Part shown: positions 54,178-62,168 of the stretch, piece after piece | How positions within the stretch are numbered: the first letter of the stretch is position 1 | Layout: every line of letters starts with the position of its first letter | From: a phage | Sequence record: NC_135731.1 | DNA length: 64,000 nt | Strand: one strand, 5' to 3' | Translations under genes and position numbers: made by a program | The notes under the pieces: generated by a model | What the model saw: only the letters and a program-made list of their open reading frames with translations | Databases searched by the model: none | Told to the model about the DNA's origin: nothing

Positions 54178-55161
54178 ATGATGACAAAGTTAACTCTTGA
54201 GCAAATTTTAACACTAAAGCAACAGGGATACACTAATAGACAAATTGCTCGTGAATTTTTAGGCCGTGAGTCACGTGAGAGCTGGATCCGACTACAGCTT
54301 AAACGTGCACAAGAGAATATGTCAGAGATTGTAGGAGAAGCAACGGAGCGCTTCCTTGAAGAACACAAAGGTGCTAAAGTTTGGGTGTATGATACAGAGA
54401 CATCCCCAACAAACGGCTGGTTCTTTGGGCACTATAAGACCAACATTCAAACCTGTGGTATTGAAGTTATGCCCTATATGCTAACTTTCGCAGGTAAGTG
54501 GTTAGACAGCCCTAGTGTAGTTGACTGCGCTCTTCCCGATTACAAAATGTGGGATGAGGATATTCACAATGATCTCGAATTGATTCAGGATTTGTGGTAT
54601 TATCTGGATAAATGCGATGTCGCAGTAGCCCACAATTCAGGTTTTGACTGCGGGTGGGCCAACCAACGATTTGCATTTCACGGGTTGCCTCCAACAAGCC
54701 CCTACAAAGAGGTTGATACCCTTAAAATGATCAAGAAGGCATTCCGTTTGAATGCAAACACTTTGGAGTATGCATGCAAATACTTCCAACTGGCCCGACA
54801 GAAACTGATTGATCACACATTTGAAATGTGGATCAAGTGTGTCCATGGCGATCTTGAGGCATTTAAACAGATGCGGGAGTATAATGTTGGTGATATCCTG
54901 TCTCTGGAAGGACTGTATTTGCTGGCTCGCCCGTTTGCTAAGCAGCACCCAAACATGTCATTGTACTACCAGGACGAGGAGCCAAAGGTTCGTTGCCCAC
55001 GCTGTGGTGGAGAACACTTTCACGAGGAAGAAGCTTTGGCATATACTCAGCTGAGTGCATTTAAAACATACCGCTGCGAAGGTTGTGGATCTGTTGTTCG
55101 TGACCGTAACAACATCCGTACCAGAGAAGAAATGAAAAACACCCTGATTCAGATAATCTAA
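54178..55161 (+). CDS. DEDD-family 3'-5' exonuclease with N-terminal HTH and C-terminal zinc ribbon
   Basis: Exo I VWVYDTETS, Exo II AHNSGFD, Exo III YNVGD; N-terminal LKQQGYTNRQIAREF; C-terminal CPRCGG...CEGCG. Confidence 0.5.
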   Translation: MMTKLTLEQILTLKQQGYTNRQIAREFLGRESRESWIRLQLKRAQENMSEIVGEATERFLEEHKGAKVWVYDTETSPTNGWFFGHYKTNIQTCGIEVMPYMLTFAGKWLDSPSVVDCALPDYKMWDEDIHNDLELIQDLWYYLDKCDVAVAHNSGFDCGWANQRFAFHGLPPTSPYKEVDTLKMIKKAFRLNANTLEYACKYFQLARQKLIDHTFEMWIKCVHGDLEAFKQMREYNVGDILSLEGLYLLARPFAKQHPNMSLYYQDEEPKVRCPRCGGEHFHEEEALAYTQLSAFKTYRCEGCGSVVRDRNNIRTREEMKNTLIQII

Positions 55162-56461: not shown

Positions 56462-56665
56462 TTGGAGACCGCAATGGCACTAAAGTTAACAATTCCAGAC
56501 AGCTTTTCAGAAAACTTTATCCCAGAAATGATGGGTAAGATGCGATCATTGCTTGATCAGATTGAGGAAGCTGTTTGGGAAGACGATGCTGTAGTGGCTA
56601 ACGAACTGGTAGATAAGTGTAAAAGTATTATTGATGCAGTTGAAGAATACCACGGAGGTTTTTGA
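56462..56665 (+). CDS. hypothetical protein
   Basis: 67-aa acidic ORF. Confidence 0.3.
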   Translation: METAMALKLTIPDSFSENFIPEMMGKMRSLLDQIEEAVWEDDAVVANELVDKCKSIIDAVEEYHGGF

Positions 56666-57279
56666 TGGATATTATTGTTCTTAACGCCCCACCCAGCAGT
56701 GGTAAGGATCACATTGCAGATCTCTTGTTGGAAGCTATTCCTAACTCACACCACCGTGAGGTTAAGGAGATGCTCTTCAGCGTGGCAATTAAGGCAGCTG
56801 GTGTAACTCCTCAACTCTGGAATGCACTTTATGACCGCCACTACAAAGAAGAGCCTTGCCCTTTCTTAATGATAGACGGCAAGCATGTTTCTCCGCGAGA
56901 ATGGATGATCCATTGTAGTGAAAATCTGATTAAACCTATCTTTGGTGAAGATGCTTTCGGTAAAGCCGCAGTCGCATCTTTGAAGAAAGATTTCCCTAAA
57001 GGTAAAGGGGTTGTTGTTTACTCTGATGGTGGATTCAAAGAGGAGCTGGCATGCCTTAGCGAGTACGCATACAGCACAGGTGGAGATCTGTTGTTGTTCC
57101 GTATTCACCGTGTCGGATATGACTGGGGAAATGATTCCAGAACCTATCTAAGTCTGGAAAAGAACGGAATAAAAGGGATTGAGTTCGATGTTGTAAATCC
57201 TGAAGGTGCACCTTGGGAATGTGCATCGGAGATTGTGTGCAAGTATATTGATGCTAAAGAGGCCCAAGAAGAATGTTAA
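56662..57279 (+). CDS. putative deoxynucleoside monophosphate kinase
   Basis: N-terminal P-loop-like IIVLNAPPSSGKDHIADLL, the same pattern as phage dNMP kinases (SGKD..AD). Confidence 0.5.
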   Translation: MMDIIVLNAPPSSGKDHIADLLLEAIPNSHHREVKEMLFSVAIKAAGVTPQLWNALYDRHYKEEPCPFLMIDGKHVSPREWMIHCSENLIKPIFGEDAFGKAAVASLKKDFPKGKGVVVYSDGGFKEELACLSEYAYSTGGDLLLFRIHRVGYDWGNDSRTYLSLEKNGIKGIEFDVVNPEGAPWECASEIVCKYIDAKEAQEEC

Positions 57280-57866
57280 TTGGAATTGATGTAGATTTGA
57301 CACTGGTAGATTCAGGAACAGCATGGTGGGAGTGGCTGGAGCGTTTGTATGGTCCAGCCAGTAAGACAGTCGTTAAACCTTCTAATGGGCTGATGTATTA
57401 CGATCTGTCAAAGTATTGGCCTGATCGCCCCAAAGAAAACATCATAGGACCTTTTGATTTCTGGAGTGATCCGTTCCTCTACGACTTTCTTAAGCCTGAA
57501 GAGGGGGCTATTGAGGTTATGAAAGATTTGGTGGCTCGCGGTCACAAGCTCGCATTTATCTCGGTATGCAAGAAAGGTCACCTTGCATCTAAATCAAGGT
57601 TCTTAAAGCGTTGGACCAGTGATTTTATGGATCTGGATGATCACACCCAGGGCCACGGCTTCTACGCCACACATTTCAAAGGAAATGTGGCTGTAGATGT
57701 TATAATTGACGACAGGCATGAATACCTAAACCAATTCGCTTCACGACCTGAAGTTATTAAAATCCTAAAAGATACGCCTTATGAGCAATTCGAGGAGTTA
57801 AAGGTCAGTGTTGACTATACCGCTAATAGCTGGTATAAAATAGGAAAGTTTTTAGAAGGTATTTGA
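57273..57866 (+). CDS. HAD-superfamily hydrolase, putative 5'(3')-deoxyribonucleotidase
   Basis: N-terminal HAD motif I IGIDVDLTLVD and downstream VIIDD. Confidence 0.45.
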   Translation: MLIGIDVDLTLVDSGTAWWEWLERLYGPASKTVVKPSNGLMYYDLSKYWPDRPKENIIGPFDFWSDPFLYDFLKPEEGAIEVMKDLVARGHKLAFISVCKKGHLASKSRFLKRWTSDFMDLDDHTQGHGFYATHFKGNVAVDVIIDDRHEYLNQFASRPEVIKILKDTPYEQFEELKVSVDYTANSWYKIGKFLEGI

Positions 57867-57867
57867 A

Positions 57868-58068
57868 ATGGGTAGATGTTCTAAAGGTGGCGATCCTGTA
57901 GTCAGATACGGTGACTGGCTAGAGGTATATGATCTGGGAGGTAAGCTAGTGTATGCCTCCAGGATCACCCAAGACATGTGCTCTGATATGCTTAACAGAT
58001 ACCTTGCATTTAAGGCTAACATAAACCCAGACGAAATTTCCAAAATTAAAACAAGGAGAGCTAAATAA
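57868..58068 (+). CDS. hypothetical protein
   Basis: 66-aa ORF. Confidence 0.25.
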   Translation: MGRCSKGGDPVVRYGDWLEVYDLGGKLVYASRITQDMCSDMLNRYLAFKANINPDEISKIKTRRAK

Positions 58069-59051
58069 TGCTAAAACTGTGCACTGCAAAGATCATTGCT
58101 GACAGTATTTCCGAGAAAGGTAAGCGTATCACCACTTTTGAGCTAGAGTATCCTCGAATTATTCACTCAGAGCTTATGACACATCGAGTGTTCAGCCGAA
58201 ACGCCATGTCTTCCCGTGCAGTGCCTGTCGGCAAGATGCTACAACAGATTGTGGAGAATCCGGCAATGCCAGTTCGCTTCGGTGTAAATAAGCGTGGGAT
58301 GGAAGATGGTGGGGAACACGATCAAAAGATCCGTGTAGAGTACACTGACATGGAGTTAACTCCTGAAGAGTTTTGGAAAGAAGCTGCAAAAAACGCCGCT
58401 TGGCATGCAGAGAAGTTCGCCCTTGCTGGTTACCATAAGCAAGTATGTAACCGCTTGGTGGAGCCGTTTCAGCGCATGAAAACAGTTGTAACAAGCACAG
58501 AGTGGAATAATTTCTTCCATCTCCGTTGCTGGCACGATGCTGACCCTACTATTCAGATGTTGGCTAATTGCATGTGGGAGGCTCTTATGAATAGCACTCC
58601 TGAAATCCTTAAACCTGGTCAATGGCACACACCATATGTAGAGCACGTTTATTTGGACGGCGAGTTTAACTATGCTGTACGTGACACAGAAGGAAAGCTT
58701 TGCATTCTCGATACTGGAGAAGCTCTGTCTATTAGTGCTAGTTGCTGTGCACAAGTATCTTATCGAAATATTGACAGCACGTTTGAAAAGGCAGACAGTG
58801 TGGCTAAAAAATTGATTGGTGGGGATCGTATTCATGCAAGCCCTTACGAGCACCAGGCAACACCTATGGATCACGATAACGCAATGGAACGTTTAAACTA
58901 CTATCTATCTTCATGTGAAATCACACAAGACAGCTGTGTTTGGCAGGAAGGTGTAACCCATCAAGACCGTGATGGTAAATTCTGGTCTGCCAACTTTTGT
59001 GGGTGGGTTCAGCACAGACAACTGCTTAATAACCACTTCGTGAAAGGTTAA
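58068..59051 (+). CDS. thyX: ThyX-like flavin-dependent thymidylate synthase homologue (motif variant)
   Basis: segment THRVFSRNAMSSRA aligns to the ThyX signature RHRxxxxxxxSxRY with first Arg replaced by Thr; 327 aa with Cys-rich C-terminal extension. Confidence 0.5.
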   Translation: MLKLCTAKIIADSISEKGKRITTFELEYPRIIHSELMTHRVFSRNAMSSRAVPVGKMLQQIVENPAMPVRFGVNKRGMEDGGEHDQKIRVEYTDMELTPEEFWKEAAKNAAWHAEKFALAGYHKQVCNRLVEPFQRMKTVVTSTEWNNFFHLRCWHDADPTIQMLANCMWEALMNSTPEILKPGQWHTPYVEHVYLDGEFNYAVRDTEGKLCILDTGEALSISASCCAQVSYRNIDSTFEKADSVAKKLIGGDRIHASPYEHQATPMDHDNAMERLNYYLSSCEITQDSCVWQEGVTHQDRDGKFWSANFCGWVQHRQLLNNHFVKG

Positions 59052-59080
59052 TCCTATCACAGCGATAGGTAACTTCTGTG

Positions 59081-59109
59081 TTGACTAATAGTATTAGATA
59101 GTCTATAAT
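59081..59109 (+). promoter_or_regulatory. sigma70 consensus promoter (plus strand)
   Basis: TTGACT (59081..59086), 17-nt spacer, TATAAT (59104..59109), upstream of 59142..59615 and the nrd genes. Confidence 0.6.
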
Positions 59110-59625: not shown

Positions 59626-59856
59626 ATGAGTCATAACTCCAAGTGGAAGGATCTTGGTTTTGCAAGTCGGGCAGAGTATGTTGGTTGGCTTTGGTTCAAC
59701 GGCCTGACAAACGATATTAAAATGTATGATGATGTTTATTATGACGAGTATACAGGTAAAATTATAAATATCTCTGTAGAAGAGGATACCTTTATCCAGC
59801 AAGATACTGATACCTGCCTTGATAAATACGTTAATGAAGTGGAGGAAGCAAATTGA
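59626..59856 (+). CDS. hypothetical protein
   Basis: start placed at ATG 59626 after AAGGTGG RBS (track lists a longer overlapping frame from 59548). Confidence 0.3.
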   Translation: MSHNSKWKDLGFASRAEYVGWLWFNGLTNDIKMYDDVYYDEYTGKIINISVEEDTFIQQDTDTCLDKYVNEVEEAN

Positions 59857-62168
59857 TCACTAAGGTAATTAAAAGCAACGGATGTGAAGTGGCATTCGAT
59901 CCAGAACGTTTAAATAAGGCAGCTATTTTCGGTGACGACGGTAACGGCAATTGGTCACACATTGCACTGGATGCATACAAACGACTGTATGATGGATGTA
60001 CGACCAAAGAAGTTAACCAAGCTATCATAGACTCCTGTGTTAGCCGTAAAGACGAAGCACATTCCCGTATGGCTGGTCGTGTTCTTATTGGTCAGATTTA
60101 TAAAGAGGCTTTTGGAGGGTTTACAAAGATCCCTTCCTTACCATCATTTTACAATACCATGGTTGAGAAAGGGTATTGGGAGGATATGGGTTATAGCTTT
60201 ACCGAGCTAAATACTTTAGGCGCTGTTATTGACCACAGTAAAGATCTCGGTTACGGCTATGCAGTCCTTAAACAGTTTCGCGACAAATACGGGATCAAGG
60301 ATACTCTTAAAGACACCCTGTTTGAATCTCCCCAGATGATGTTTATGGGGATAGCAATGGCTGTCATGAAGAATATGCCGAAAGAACGTCGTATCGACGA
60401 TGTTGTAAAACTATACAATTATCTGTCCGACTTAAAGATCAATGCTCCGACACCGTACTTAAACGGGCTGCGCACAGGTAAGACAGGGTATGCATCTTGT
60501 TGTGTAATAAAAGCTGACGATACAGCAAAATCTATTGGTGTGGCACGTGAAGTTGCGTACACGATGACGGTTAACCAAGCAGGCATCGGCTACTACTTAT
60601 CCTCAAGATCTGCAGGCGATGGTGTTCGTGGTAACACTATTAAACATATGGGTAAGATTCCGTATTATCGAGGTATTGATGCTGGTGTTAAGGAGAACAG
60701 ACAACAATCACGTGGCGGTTCTGCAACAGTATCATTCCTTGCACTGGACCCGCAGATTGATGAGCTAATCCGTTTGAGAAACCCTATGACTGTTGCTTCA
60801 AAAAGAATCAACACCATGGACTATTCCATCGGTATTAATAGGTCGTTTATCAACCGTGTGGCTAAGAATTTAGATTGGATGCTTGTTTCTTATAAGCACG
60901 CTCCTCAACTGCATGAGGGTATCTTCACCATGTCTATGGAGGAGTTTGATGCAGAGGTTGATCGTATTGCTAAAGATGACAGTATTCCTAAAACATGGAT
61001 CCGAGCCAGAGATCTTGCTGTTGAACTGATCACGCAGCGTACTGAGGTGGGTAGGCTGTATGTATACTGGACAGATGAGATGAATAGACATACACCTTTT
61101 AAAGATGTGATCTATTCAAGTAACCTGTGTGCAGAAATAGCCCTCCCGACAAAAGGCTATTCAGATATGCGTAATATCTTCAAGTACGATGCTGATGATG
61201 GAGAGGTTGCATTGTGCTTCCTGTCATCCCTTGTAGCTGGAAGGGTTACTCCAGAGGAGTATGAGGATGTTGCATACTACACGGTGCTTATGATTGACAA
61301 TGTTATGGAAATCATGACATATCCGTATGAAAATATGGAAAGCACAGTTAAAAAACGCAGATCCATCGGGGTTGGCCTTACCAATGTTGCACATTTTATT
61401 GCCAGCCACAAGATTACTTACGGATCTCCTGAAAGTAAACAGCTCGTTCACGATCTTGCAGAACTTCACAGCTACAGCTTGCATAAGGCAAGTTTACGGT
61501 TGGCAAAAGAGCGTGGTGTCTGCGAGTGGATGCATAAAACAAAATATCCAGAAGGTTGGTTACCAATAGACACCTATAACAAAGAGGTCGATAGCGTGGT
61601 GAAAGATCCTTCTCTTAAACAGGATTGGGAAGGGTTACGTAAAGAAATCATTGAAAATGGTGGGATACGTAATAGCGTTCTTGAAGCATATATGCCTAAT
61701 GAAAGCTCTTCGCTGGCAACAAACACCACTAACGGGGTTTATCCTGTCCGTGAGCACATTATCTTTAAAAAGTCGCCACAAGGGCAGGTGCTGTTTATCG
61801 TTCCTGACTATGATGAGTTGAAAGAGTATTACACTTCGGCTTGGGACGTTGATACTAACGACATGATCGATATGTATGCTGTGATTCAAAAATTCACAGG
61901 TCAGGCAATCAGCGCGGATTTATACATCGACTACACCAAGTTGAAAGATGGTAAAATTTCAATGAAGGAGCAGCTAGGGTACCTTATCCGTGCCACTAAA
62001 TTCGGGATGAAGACATGGTATTATTTAAACTCCAGGGTTGGTGCTGGTGACTCCTTGGCAGAGGAACTTCATGCCAAGAAACAAGCTGAAGATGAAACCA
62101 GAAAGAAATATCCTTTGATTGCAGATAGTTCAGTTGAAGATCCATATTGCGAAAGTTGTGCACTATAA
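59853..62168 (+). CDS. nrdA: ribonucleoside-diphosphate reductase alpha subunit (class Ia)
   Basis: 771 aa, N-terminal ATP-cone-like region, active-site motif SNLCAEI, size equal to bacterial NrdA; followed by nrdB. Confidence 0.85.
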   Translation: MITKVIKSNGCEVAFDPERLNKAAIFGDDGNGNWSHIALDAYKRLYDGCTTKEVNQAIIDSCVSRKDEAHSRMAGRVLIGQIYKEAFGGFTKIPSLPSFYNTMVEKGYWEDMGYSFTELNTLGAVIDHSKDLGYGYAVLKQFRDKYGIKDTLKDTLFESPQMMFMGIAMAVMKNMPKERRIDDVVKLYNYLSDLKINAPTPYLNGLRTGKTGYASCCVIKADDTAKSIGVAREVAYTMTVNQAGIGYYLSSRSAGDGVRGNTIKHMGKIPYYRGIDAGVKENRQQSRGGSATVSFLALDPQIDELIRLRNPMTVASKRINTMDYSIGINRSFINRVAKNLDWMLVSYKHAPQLHEGIFTMSMEEFDAEVDRIAKDDSIPKTWIRARDLAVELITQRTEVGRLYVYWTDEMNRHTPFKDVIYSSNLCAEIALPTKGYSDMRNIFKYDADDGEVALCFLSSLVAGRVTPEEYEDVAYYTVLMIDNVMEIMTYPYENMESTVKKRRSIGVGLTNVAHFIASHKITYGSPESKQLVHDLAELHSYSLHKASLRLAKERGVCEWMHKTKYPEGWLPIDTYNKEVDSVVKDPSLKQDWEGLRKEIIENGGIRNSVLEAYMPNESSSLATNTTNGVYPVREHIIFKKSPQGQVLFIVPDYDELKEYYTSAWDVDTNDMIDMYAVIQKFTGQAISADLYIDYTKLKDGKISMKEQLGYLIRATKFGMKTWYYLNSRVGAGDSLAEELHAKKQAEDETRKKYPLIADSSVEDPYCESCAL

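What the first reader, a model, noticed from the sequence alone, without database searches (positions are those of the whole stretch)
58068..59051. ThyX-like enzyme with a non-canonical signature and a Cys-rich C-terminal extension
The region aligning to the ThyX signature reads THRVFSRNAMSSRA (canonical RHRxxxxxxxSxRY), replacing a substrate-binding Arg and the Tyr. The protein is about 80 residues longer than typical ThyX, with several C-terminal cysteines. It sits with dNMP kinase, deoxyribonucleotidase and nrd genes, so it may be a divergent thymidylate synthase or a neofunctionalised paralogue, for example making a modified pyrimidine.
Basis: partly seen in the sequence, partly recalled or inferred. 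Interest (0 to 1): 0.45.

Follow-up and report, generated by a model that had tools for sequence, protein, structure and literature searches.

The report
Circularly permuted phage ThyX thymidylate synthase
This phage gene is the virus's only candidate enzyme for making the DNA base thymine: it has the known ThyX fold with its parts in a different order and lacks two residues thought essential in ThyX, a variant shared by over a thousand phages and one bacterial phylum.

Summary
The ORF (58068-59051, +, 327 aa) is real and the motif MTHRVFSRNAMSSRA is there. The window is a Vequintavirus (rV5-like coliphage), and this gene is rV5 gp106, usually annotated 'thymidylate synthase'.

The motif change is not an alignment artefact. 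Among 131 diverse relatives, Thr replaces T. maritima Arg78 in 96% and Ala replaces Tyr91 in 100%. Thr also replaces Arg165 in 98%.

The 'Cys-rich C-terminal extension' is misread. Residues ~213-270 are the relocated N-terminal module of ThyX (SAVRAARVSF...HETPFEH becomes SASCCAQVSYR...HASPYEH). The family is therefore a circular permutant of ThyX, with an added ~57-aa tail. Only Cys227 is conserved, so there is no metal-site pattern.

The dUMP-binding arginines, Ser88, His53, Ser30 and His79/Arg80 equivalents are kept. The phage genome searched has no ThyA, DHFR or canonical ThyX. The gene sits in a tight dNMP kinase / nucleotidase / ThyX-like cluster next to nrdAB.

The same family lies in a conserved housekeeping locus in 26 Eremiobacterota genomes, and inteins target its catalytic motifs.

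Best reading (0.7): a working flavin-dependent thymidylate synthase with a rewired active site. A new product such as 5-hmdUMP is not excluded (~0.1). I found no paper describing the permutation.

The parts
58068..59051 (+). CDS of the ThyX-like protein (327 aa + stop). It is rV5 gp106 / N4 gp30 / ICP1 gp193 family, PHROG 85.
58053..58058 (+). Shine-Dalgarno AAGGAG, 9 nt before the ATG. The ATG overlaps the upstream ORF's stop (TAATG).
   Evidence: Sequence read directly.
58113..58622 (+). ThyX core module (aa 16-185), equivalent to T. maritima ThyX residues ~55-211: beta3, helix 3, active-site loop, helices 4-7.
   Evidence: hhalign q15-193 vs Tm55-211, E 1.4e-5. Pfam Thy1 positions 60-191.
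58176..58220 (+). Signature / active-site loop MTHRVFSRNAMSSRA (aa 37-51), aligned to Tm F77-Y91. T38 replaces R78 and A51 replaces Y91; H39, R40, S43, N45, S48 and R50 are kept.
58227..58361 (+). Family-specific insertion after the signature loop (aa 54-98): a helix plus a beta-meander in the model, carrying the invariant G77-M78 motif.
   Evidence: AF2 secondary structure. G77 and M78 are 100% conserved.
58434..58466 (+). H123-K124-Q125 (family-specific invariants) and N128-R129, where R129 = Tm R147, a dUMP phosphate-binding Arg.
   Evidence: R129 99%, K124 99%, H123 96%.
58521..58556 (+). LRCWHDADPTIQ, equivalent to Tm LRADSHAQWEIQ. R153 = Tm R174 (uracil-binding Arg), 100% conserved.
58704..58877 (+). 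Relocated N-terminal ThyX module (aa 213-270): helix 1 SASCCAQVSYR (= Tm SAVRAARVSF, S231 = S30), helix 2, and HASPYEH (= Tm HETPFEH, H256 = H53).
   Evidence: HMMER piece q225-266 vs Tm 34-73 in tagged numbering. hhalign q217-272 vs Tm16-69, E 1.7e-4. Alignment runs through the junction of a doubled Tm sequence, prob 94.9%, E 4.6e-8. Shuffle control: score 36.6 vs mean 9.1, sd 1.9, max 17.8.
58833..58853 (+). HASPYEH motif (aa 256-262), the counterpart of the flavin/folate-stacking His53 motif of ThyX.
   Evidence: H256 100%, E261 97%, H262 99% conserved. It is an intein insertion site in relatives.
58878..59048 (+). Family-specific C-terminal tail (aa 271-327) with conserved WSGNFxGWxQxRQ (N309 95%, Q315 97%, R317 100%). 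It has no counterpart in canonical ThyX.
   Evidence: No significant internal repeat with the N-terminal loop.
56662..57279 (+). Deoxynucleoside monophosphate kinase, first gene of the tightly packed cluster.
   Evidence: phrog_139 E 9.3e-45.
57273..57866 (+). NT5C-family 5'(3')-deoxyribonucleotidase. It overlaps the kinase gene by 7 nt.
   Evidence: Pfam PF06941, 27.2 bits vs cut-off 24.8.
57868..58068 (+). Small ORF (66 aa, phrog_4903, unknown function), overlapping the ThyX-like start by one base (TAATG).
59081..59109 (+). Near-consensus sigma-70-type promoter-like site (TTGACT-17-TATAAT, 11/12) just after the gene. It suggests the ThyX-like gene ends one transcription unit and the nrd block begins another.
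   Evidence: This is a consensus match only; the total count in the region is not above shuffles.
59853..62168 (+). NrdA, ribonucleoside-diphosphate reductase large subunit (context).
   Evidence: phrog_84 E 5.8e-276.

Best explanation
The gene encodes the phage's own flavin-dependent thymidylate synthase (dUMP + CH2-THF + NAD(P)H -> dTMP + THF). It belongs to a large, distinct lineage of the ThyX superfamily that is circularly permuted. The ThyX core comes first: beta3, helix 3, active-site loop, helices 4-7. The module that is N-terminal in canonical ThyX (helix 1 with Ser30, helix 2, the His53 HETPFEH motif) follows it, and a family-specific ~57-aa tail ends the protein.

Shown: the ThyX fold; the non-colinear homology; conservation of the nucleotide-binding set (R30, S48, R50, R129, R153) and of flavin/folate contacts (H39, R40, N45, S231, H256, S258); and family-wide loss of Arg78, Tyr91 and Arg165.

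Inferred: the enzyme still binds flavin and dUMP and still makes dTMP. The roles of Arg78 (stabilising FADH-) and Tyr91 (lid / general acid) are inferred to be taken over by family-specific invariant residues. Candidates are K124, H123, Q125, H187, G77-M78, W103, N309, Q315 and R317. In the phage, the dTMP would feed the adjacent dNMP kinase, with the nrd genes supplying deoxyribonucleotides. No DHFR is needed, because ThyX chemistry yields THF.
For: Fold:
- Foldseek PDB top hits are all ThyX. The AF2 model has pLDDT 86.5.

Permutation:
- Non-colinear HMMER pieces.
- Two separate hhalign hits against Tm ThyX. Against a doubled Tm sequence they merge into one alignment across the junction, with score rising from 42 to 62 and E 4.6e-8.
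- Shuffle control z ~14.

Catalytic residues kept in 131 diverse members:
- H39 100%, S48 99%, R50 100%, R129 99%, N148 99%, R153 100%, S231 100%, H256 100%, E261 97%, H262 99%, R30 98%.

Sole thymidylate synthase:
- No ThyA, FolA, Dut or canonical ThyX by tblastn in the window or in a related Vequintavirus genome record.
- The rV5 paper lists gp106 as the only thymidylate synthase (PMC3606486).

Context:
- Overlapping dNMP kinase / NT5C / small ORF / ThyX-like genes, followed by nrdA.
- nrdAB nearby in ICP1. dCTP deaminase 1.5 kb upstream in an N4-like phage. dCMP deaminase co-occurs in N4-like roseophages (PMC2784036, PMC11934525).

Physiology (correlative):
- PaP1 infection raises thymidine while its highly expressed gp110 'thymidylate synthase' is on (PMC5377924). 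I did not verify that gp110 belongs to this family; other Pakpunavirus phages (K8, PAK_P2, PaoP5) did hit.

Cellular copy:
- 26 Eremiobacterota genomes carry the same variant, with all family signatures, in a conserved chromosomal neighbourhood: M48 peptidase in 25/25, plus a prs / ribosomal protein L25 cluster.

Selection:
- Inteins are inserted at five or more sites, all inside the catalytic motifs.
- dN/dS is 0.18 for roseophage thyX (PMC11934525).
Against: - No member of this permuted lineage has, to my knowledge or in the library searched, been assayed.
- Tyr91 is called strictly conserved and critical in canonical ThyX (1000-fold effect when mutated). Arg78 stabilises the reduced flavin. 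Both are absent, as is the FAD-phosphate ligand Arg165, so canonical chemistry cannot be assumed.
- TIGR02170 (thyX equivalog) scores 39.1 against a cut-off of 87.9.
- I could not inspect model coordinates, so the proposed compensating residues are guesses based on conservation.
- I could not check whether Eremiobacterota genomes lack ThyA or canonical ThyX.
- The PaP1 thymidine rise is correlative.
Confidence: 0.7

Rival explanations
1. Neofunctionalised ThyX-fold enzyme. It still transfers a one-carbon unit to C5 of a pyrimidine nucleotide but releases a different product, for example 5-hydroxymethyl-dUMP because water reaches the exocyclic methylene when the Tyr91 'lid' is missing. Alternatively it acts on another substrate (dCMP, UMP).
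For: - Family-wide loss of Tyr91, which shields dUMP C5 and flavin N5 from solvent (PMC6514825) and whose mutation slows the methylation step ~1000-fold.
- Loss of Arg78 and Arg165.
- Gln75 is replaced by an invariant Glu.
- A T4-type dNMP kinase sits in the same cluster. From general knowledge, such kinases also phosphorylate hydroxymethylated dNMPs.
Against: - The uracil- and phosphate-binding arginines and Ser88 are kept.
- The gene is the only thymidylate synthase candidate in the phage. If it made something else, all dTMP would have to come from the host.
- The same variant lies in a housekeeping locus in a bacterial phylum.
- Known thymidine hypermodification pathways use ThyA-family hydroxymethylases.
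- No hypermodification genes were seen among the neighbours.
- Thymidine rises in PaP1 infection.
- The family is paired with dCMP or dCTP deaminases, as expected for dTMP synthesis.
Confidence: 0.1
2. It is a thymidylate synthase, but with a changed cofactor or electron-donor system: for example FMN or a loosely bound flavin instead of tightly bound FAD, or a different reductant or methylene donor. This would follow from the loss of the FAD-contacting arginines.
For: - Arg78 (isoalloxazine N1/C2=O) and Arg165 (FAD phosphates; Mtb Arg190) are both replaced by Thr in >=96% of members.
- New invariant polar residues appear (H123, K124, Q125, H187, N309, Q315, R317), along with a new C-terminal tail.
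Against: - His79/Arg80, Thr55/Ser, Asn169, His53 and Ser30 equivalents, all flavin or folate contacts, are retained.
- There is no direct evidence for another cofactor.
- No conserved partner gene lies next to it across lineages.
Confidence: 0.15
3. It is a catalytically dead ThyX-fold protein with a regulatory or nucleotide-binding role, for example sequestering dUMP or acting as a scaffold in a dNTP-synthesis complex.
For: Three residues important in canonical ThyX are missing. TIGR02170 scores below its cut-off.
Against: - About twenty active-site-equivalent positions are 95-100% conserved over >5000 clusters at 50% identity.
- Inteins target exactly these motifs.
- It is a chromosomal housekeeping-context gene in Eremiobacterota.
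- It is the sole thymidylate synthase candidate in phages that also carry dCMP/dCTP deaminase.
Confidence: 0.03

Closest known systems
Canonical flavin-dependent thymidylate synthase ThyX/FDTS (T. maritima TM0449, M. tuberculosis Rv2754c, H. pylori, PBCV-1 A674R; Pfam PF02511, TIGR02170)
   Different: The order of modules is circularly permuted: the N-terminal ~55 residues of ThyX now follow the core. Arg78->Thr, Tyr91->Ala, Arg165->Thr, Gln75->Glu and His178->Asp hold family-wide. There is an extra beta-meander with an invariant G-M motif and a ~57-aa conserved C-terminal tail. Median length is 319 aa against ~220-250. It scores below the TIGR02170 cut-off. phmmer finds no PDB hit.
Annotated but uncharacterised phage 'thymidylate synthases' of the same family: rV5 gp106, N4 gp30, ICP1 gp193, Pakpunavirus K8_127; PaP1 gp110 is probable but not checked here (PHROG 85)
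   Same: Same protein family. tblastn finds it in 1035 phage records, 982 of them covering >=80% of the query, at 28-100% identity. The signature residues are the same.
   Different: Nothing of substance; the window's protein is an ordinary member. These proteins are named by homology only. I found no assay and no description of the permutation.
PolB, the ThyX-like UMP/dUMP C5-methylase of polyoxin biosynthesis (PDB 4P5A)
   Different: From general knowledge, PolB is colinear with ThyX and keeps the canonical motif, and its specificity comes from extra loops. The family here is permuted and lacks Tyr91/Arg78. No sequence-level affinity specific to PolB was seen.
ThyA-family enzymes (classical thymidylate synthase, dUMP and dCMP hydroxymethylases of phages)
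   Same: They carry out the same overall step in phage nucleotide metabolism, and they are the enzymes that start known pyrimidine hypermodification pathways.
   Different: Unrelated fold and mechanism. No ThyA-like sequence is present in the window or in the related phage genome.

Membership tests
ThyX / FDTS superfamily (Pfam PF02511 Thy1) | Match to the Pfam Thy1 model above its gathering score | tested here: met
   37.8 bits vs 24.8, E 2.2e-9. Only model positions 60-191 are matched, by residues 23-179.
ThyX / FDTS superfamily | ThyX three-dimensional fold | tested here: met
ThyX equivalog (NCBIfam TIGR02170) | Score at or above the curated equivalog cut-off | tested here: not met
   39.1 bits vs cut-off 87.9.
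Canonical ThyX | Full signature motif RHRxxxxxxxSxRY | tested here: not met
   The motif reads THRxxSxNxxSSRA. The first Arg is Thr in 96% and the Tyr is Ala in 100% of 131 relatives; His, the second Arg, Ser and the last Arg are kept.
Canonical ThyX | Colinear module order: helix 1, helix 2 and the His53 motif before beta3 and the RHR loop | tested here: not met
   The His53 module lies at aa 213-270, after the core. The alignment is continuous only against a doubled ThyX sequence. Shuffle control z ~14.
Canonical ThyX | dUMP-binding residues (Tm R90, R147, R174, S88; Mtb R87 equivalent) | tested here: met
   R50 100%, R129 99%, R153 100%, S48 99%, R30 98%. This rests on alignment only, not on structure.
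Canonical ThyX | Flavin contacts: Arg78 (N1/C2=O), Arg165 (phosphates), His79/Arg80, His53, Ser30, Asn85 | tested here: inconclusive
   His79, Arg80, His53, Ser30 and Asn85 equivalents are conserved. Arg78 and Arg165 equivalents are Thr. The roles are taken from PMC11940539 and PMC6514825.
Canonical ThyX | FAD-containing homotetramer that converts dUMP to dTMP with CH2-THF and NAD(P)H | not testable with these tools
   Needs biochemistry. No assay of any family member was found in the papers searched.
Canonical ThyX (genomic signature) | Genome lacks ThyA and DHFR | tested here: met
   tblastn with E. coli ThyA, FolA and Dut and with Tm ThyX found nothing below E ~2 in the window or in the Vequintavirus BP9 record. 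The BP9 record looks partly chimeric.
ThyA family (including dUMP/dCMP hydroxymethylases) | Sequence similarity to ThyA | tested here: not met
   No Pfam, NCBIfam or PHROG hit of that kind, and no tblastn hit.
   Only C227 (85%) and C226 (60%) are conserved. C283, C290 and C311 are not. There is no CxxC. In Eremiobacterota C226 is Arg.

The most novel reading that the evidence does not exclude
The permuted lineage does not make dTMP. Without the Tyr91 lid and the Arg78 that stabilises reduced flavin, it may hand the flavin-borne methylene to dUMP but release a non-reduced product such as 5-hydroxymethyl-dUMP, or it may act on another pyrimidine nucleotide. That would be the first ThyX-derived route to a modified DNA base, and it would imply unnoticed base modification in rV5-like, N4-like, ICP1-like and other phages.
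Probability: 0.1. Interest if true: 0.85.

Novelty: new variant of a known kind. Interest (0 to 1): 0.5.

Why it matters
ThyX is a drug target and a model for flavin-mediated methylene transfer. Current mechanisms give central roles to Tyr91 (lid / general acid) and Arg78 (stabilising FADH-).

A very large natural lineage lacks both residues yet keeps every other active-site residue. It comprises more than 5000 clusters at 50% identity, over 1000 sequenced phages including N4, rV5 and ICP1, and chromosomal copies in Eremiobacterota. It also has its modules in permuted order. This is a ready-made natural experiment on which parts of the ThyX mechanism are dispensable and on how the oligomeric active site tolerates re-wiring.

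For annotation, it explains why equivalog models fail and why Pfam covers only part of these proteins. If the enzyme makes something other than dTMP, many well-studied phages would carry an unrecognised DNA modification.

For this window itself the gene is an ordinary member of the family.

Tried and rejected
1. Tandem duplication. About 16 of 150 representatives are 520-680 aa and gave two HMM stretches. They are not doubled enzymes but carry inteins (Intein_splicing, HNH, LAGLIDADG).

2. C-terminal tail as a degenerate second copy of the signature loop. The TH...SGNF spacing matches RH...SGRY in the doubled alignment. However, profile-profile comparison of the N-terminal loop with the tail is not significant (E 0.2-0.28), so I dropped this idea.

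3. Conserved small partner gene next to the enzyme. The flanking small ORFs in the window, ICP1, SP5M and K8 share no similarity.

4. Cys-rich metal site. Rejected.

5. phmmer against PDB sequences found nothing. Only a profile search revealed the pieces.

6. The afdb50 fold library was not available.

7. The diverse alignment A2 was too variable for the genome scan, so A1 was used instead.

8. Literature searches for a described ThyX circular permutation, for distinctive ThyX motifs in phages, or for assays of phage members returned nothing relevant.

9. Residue-level 3D analysis of what replaces Arg78/Tyr91 was not possible, because model coordinates are not exposed.

Full report
**What is there**

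The window is part of a Vequintavirus (rV5-like coliphage) genome. The 984-bp region is 100% identical to Escherichia phage phiWec196 and 95-99% identical to about 100 other records.

The ORF at 58068-59051 (+) encodes 327 aa. An AAGGAG ribosome-binding site lies 9 nt upstream, and the ATG overlaps the stop of the preceding small ORF (TAATG). It is the last gene of a tightly packed set:
- a dNMP kinase at 56662-57279 (phrog_139, E 9e-45);
- an NT5C-type deoxyribonucleotidase at 57273-57866 (Pfam PF06941);
- a 66-aa ORF;
- the ThyX-like gene.

A near-consensus sigma-70-like site (TTGACT-17-TATAAT) follows at 59081-59109. After two small ORFs come nrdA, nrdB, a glutaredoxin and nrdD/nrdG.

**Family assignment**

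- Pfam Thy1 is matched above its gathering score (37.8 vs 24.8 bits), but only model positions 60-191 align, to residues 23-179.
- The NCBIfam thyX equivalog TIGR02170 scores 39.1 against a cut-off of 87.9.
- PHROG 85 'thymidylate synthase' matches at 1e-112.
- phmmer finds nothing in the PDB.

**The motif**

HMMER and hhalign both align MTHRVFSRNAMSSRA (aa 37-51) with T. maritima FRHRIASYNELSGRY (residues 77-91).

I measured conservation in 131 representatives, each from a different 50%-identity cluster.

Positions that differ from canonical ThyX:

| Position here | T. maritima residue | Conservation |
|---|---|---|
| T38 | R78 | Thr 96% |
| A51 | Y91 | Ala 100% |
| T144 | R165 | Thr 98% |
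| E35 | Q75 | Glu 95% |

Positions that are kept:

| Position here | T. maritima residue | Conservation |
|---|---|---|
| H39 | H79 | 100% |
| R40 | R80 | 83% |
| S43 | S83 | 93% |
| N45 | N85 | 94% |
| S48 | S88 | 99% |
| R50 | R90 | 100% |
| R129 | R147 | 99% |
| N148 | N169 | 99% |
| R153 | R174 | 100% |
| R30 | (M. tuberculosis R87 position) | 98% |

The change is thus a property of a whole lineage. It is neither an alignment artefact nor a quirk of this phage.

It is not trivial either. Tyr91 is described as strictly conserved and critical: its mutation slows flavin oxidation about 1000-fold, and it hydrogen-bonds His53 and may act as a general acid. Arg78 points at N1/C2=O of the reduced flavin (PMC11940539). 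The equivalent Tyr108 in M. tuberculosis forms a lid over dUMP C5 and flavin N5. Arg190, the Tm Arg165 equivalent, binds the FAD phosphates (PMC6514825).

**The 'extension' is a circular permutation**

A profile of the close relatives, searched against PDB sequences, aligned to T. maritima ThyX in three pieces that are out of order. Chain positions below are in the numbering of the 232-residue PDB construct (native +12):
- query 225-266 (SASCCAQVSYR...HASPFEHQA) with Tm SAVRAARVSF...GHETPFEHIV, chain positions 34-73, which is the N-terminal module carrying Ser30 and His53;
- query 21-50 with chain positions 73-102;
- query 129-173 with chain positions 167-211.

With a profile of the 131 diverse members, hhalign gave two separate hits in native numbering: q15-193 to Tm 55-211 (E 1.4e-5) and q217-272 to Tm 16-69 (E 1.7e-4). 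Against a head-to-tail doubled Tm sequence these merge into one alignment that runs through the junction (q10-325 to positions 49-338). The score rises from 42 to 62, with probability 94.9% and E 4.6e-8. That is the standard test for circular permutation.

As a control, family columns 186-275 scored 36.6 against Tm 1-70. Two hundred shuffles of that segment gave a mean of 9.1, sd 1.9 and a maximum of 17.8. The rest of Tm scored 14.1.

The relocated module keeps its functional residues: S231 (= Ser30) 100%, H256 (= His53) 100%, S258 96%, E261 97% and H262 99%.

The exact breakpoints are less certain. The N-terminal strand at aa 6-15 and the strands at aa 192-214 could not be placed confidently.

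After aa 270 comes a ~57-aa tail with no canonical counterpart. It is well conserved (WSGNFxGWxQxRQ; N309 95%, Q315 97%, R317 100%). A further family-specific insertion at aa 54-98 carries an invariant Gly77-Met78. These additions explain the extra ~80-100 residues.

Cysteines are not a feature of the family. Only C227 (85%) and C226 (60%) are conserved, both within helix 1, and there is no CxxC pattern.

**How widespread it is**

- tblastn finds the family in 1035 of 50,697 phage records. These include rV5-like and related myoviruses, ICP1, Pakpunavirus (the PAK_P1/PaP1 group), many N4-like Schitoviridae, Caulobacter, Xanthomonas, Flavobacterium and Cellulophaga phages.
- An exhaustive HMMER search of 1.84 billion cluster representatives gives 5028 clusters at E<=1e-3 and 1982 at E<=1e-30.
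- N4 gp30, rV5 gp106 and ICP1 gp193 are members or are annotated as such.
- Everywhere the family is simply called thymidylate synthase or ThyX.

I found no paper that assays a member or mentions the permutation. No NCBIfam model reaches its cut-off.

**Evidence bearing on function**

1. It is the only candidate thymidylate synthase. tblastn with E. coli ThyA, FolA and Dut and with Tm ThyX found nothing in the window or in a related Vequintavirus genome record. The rV5 genome paper lists gp106 as the only thymidylate synthase. Lack of DHFR fits ThyX chemistry, which yields THF rather than DHF.

2. The context fits dTMP synthesis. Here the gene sits with a dNMP kinase and the nrd genes. In an N4-like coliphage a dCTP deaminase lies 1.5 kb upstream. 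In N4-like roseophages the gene co-occurs with dCMP deaminase and is under purifying selection (dN/dS 0.18).

3. In P. aeruginosa infected with PaP1, a Pakpunavirus, thymidine rises while the phage 'thymidylate synthase' gp110 is highly expressed (PMC5377924). This is correlative. I did not check that gp110 itself belongs to the family, although other Pakpunavirus phages hit.

4. A scan of one genome per GTDB species found 78 loci, 26 of them in Eremiobacterota/Vulcanimicrobiota, often on megabase-scale contigs.
   - These loci share synteny. The gene is followed by an M48 peptidase in all 25 other Eremiobacterota loci.
   - It lies near hydantoinase/oxoprolinase genes, an amino-acid kinase family gene, and a phosphoribosyl-pyrophosphate synthetase / ribosomal protein L25 cluster.
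   - This is a housekeeping neighbourhood, not a prophage.
   - Their proteins carry every family signature, including Thr38, Ala51, Thr144 and the relocated His motif.
   - A vertically inherited cellular copy argues for a core function.

5. About a tenth of the representatives (16 of 150) are 520-680 aa long because of inteins (Intein_splicing, HNH and LAGLIDADG domains). The inteins sit at five or more sites: before MTHR, after THR, within the Ser-rich loop, in LRxH/DAQPE, and right after His256. All sites lie inside the catalytic motifs. From general knowledge, inteins typically sit at conserved active-site motifs of replication and nucleotide-metabolism enzymes, so this marks both the old and the relocated motifs as functionally central.

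6. Known thymidine hypermodification pathways begin with ThyA-family dUMP hydroxymethylases, not ThyX (PMC8989533). I saw no hypermodification genes nearby.

**Interpretation**

The most likely reading (about 0.7) is that this is a working flavin-dependent thymidylate synthase of a circularly permuted ThyX lineage.

In this reading the jobs of Arg78, Tyr91 and Arg165 have been taken over by other residues. Candidates from conservation alone are K124, H123, Q125, H187, G77-M78, W103, N309, Q315 and R317. That step is inferred, because I could not examine model coordinates.

A variant of the same idea is that the flavin or the reductant is handled differently.

It remains chemically reasonable, because the missing Tyr is the solvent lid. 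The distribution, the housekeeping copy and the sole-synthase status argue against it, and I put it near 0.1. A dead enzyme is very unlikely.

**Verdict**

The gene itself is an ordinary member of a very common phage family already labelled thymidylate synthase.

What appears to be new:
- the family is a circular permutant of ThyX;
- it lacks residues regarded as essential;
- it is also chromosomal in one bacterial phylum.

I rate it a new variant of a known kind, with interest 0.5.

Noticed in passing
Relatives P0124, P0134, P0136, P0148, P0149, P0157, P0165, P0175, P0201, P0211, P0214, P0216, P0224, P0236, P0251, P0256 (not in the window): Family members of 520-680 aa carry inteins (Intein_splicing, HNH or LAGLIDADG domains). 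The inteins sit at five or more distinct sites, all inside catalytic motifs: H33^C, R40^C, F42^S, S48^S, LRxH^C-DAQPE and H256^S.
   Followed up: partly
L020-L063, L082 (Eremiobacterota genomes, e.g. L034 = OY969579.1 1470495-1487226): The permuted ThyX is a chromosomal gene in a conserved housekeeping neighbourhood in 26 Eremiobacterota/Vulcanimicrobiota genomes. An M48 peptidase lies downstream and a prs / ribosomal protein L25 cluster is nearby. Whether these genomes lack thyA or canonical thyX could not be checked.
   Followed up: partly
window 59081-59109 (+): Near-consensus sigma-70-type promoter-like site TTGACT-17-TATAAT (11/12), between the ThyX-like gene and the next ORF. An inverted repeat CCTATC-ACAGC-GATAGG at 59054-59070 lies just after the stop codon.
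   Followed up: no
window 56662-58068 (+): The dNMP kinase, NT5C-type deoxyribonucleotidase, a 66-aa ORF and the ThyX-like gene overlap or abut (7-nt overlap, 1-nt gap, TAATG). This suggests one translationally coupled unit. It is curious to find a deoxyribonucleotidase between a kinase and a thymidylate synthase.
   Followed up: partly
L007 8956-9300 (Pseudomonas phage K8, K8_128): A 114-aa ORF directly downstream of the family member is also annotated 'thymidylate synthase'. It has no similarity to the ORFs flanking the gene in the window, ICP1 or SP5M.
   Followed up: partly
L004 (PP488543.1 Escherichia phage BP9, 127972-138295): The end of this Vequintavirus record carries lambdoid genes (integrase, exodeoxyribonuclease VIII, ea22, replication proteins), so the deposited assembly looks chimeric.
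   Followed up: no
BFVD hits A0A4Y5TVX3 (245 aa) and A0A4Y5TVY4 (97 aa), Escherichia phage vB_EcoM-ECP26: In this close relative the gene is annotated as two pieces (245 + 97 aa, 96-98% identical to the query). This is probably a frameshift or a sequencing error.
   Followed up: no
BFVD hit A0A127AWA5, Bacillus phage SP-15 (413 aa 'thymidylate synthetase'): A weak ThyX-fold match (E 0.07). From general knowledge, this phage's DNA carries a hypermodified thymine (5-dihydroxypentyluracil). It could be a lead for ThyX-fold enzymes in base modification.
   Followed up: no
window 54178-55161 (+): A 327-aa protein with a weak RNase_T-type exonuclease match and a C-terminal CxxC...CxxC zinc-ribbon. 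It is annotated in relatives as 'DNA polymerase exonuclease subunit'.
   Followed up: no
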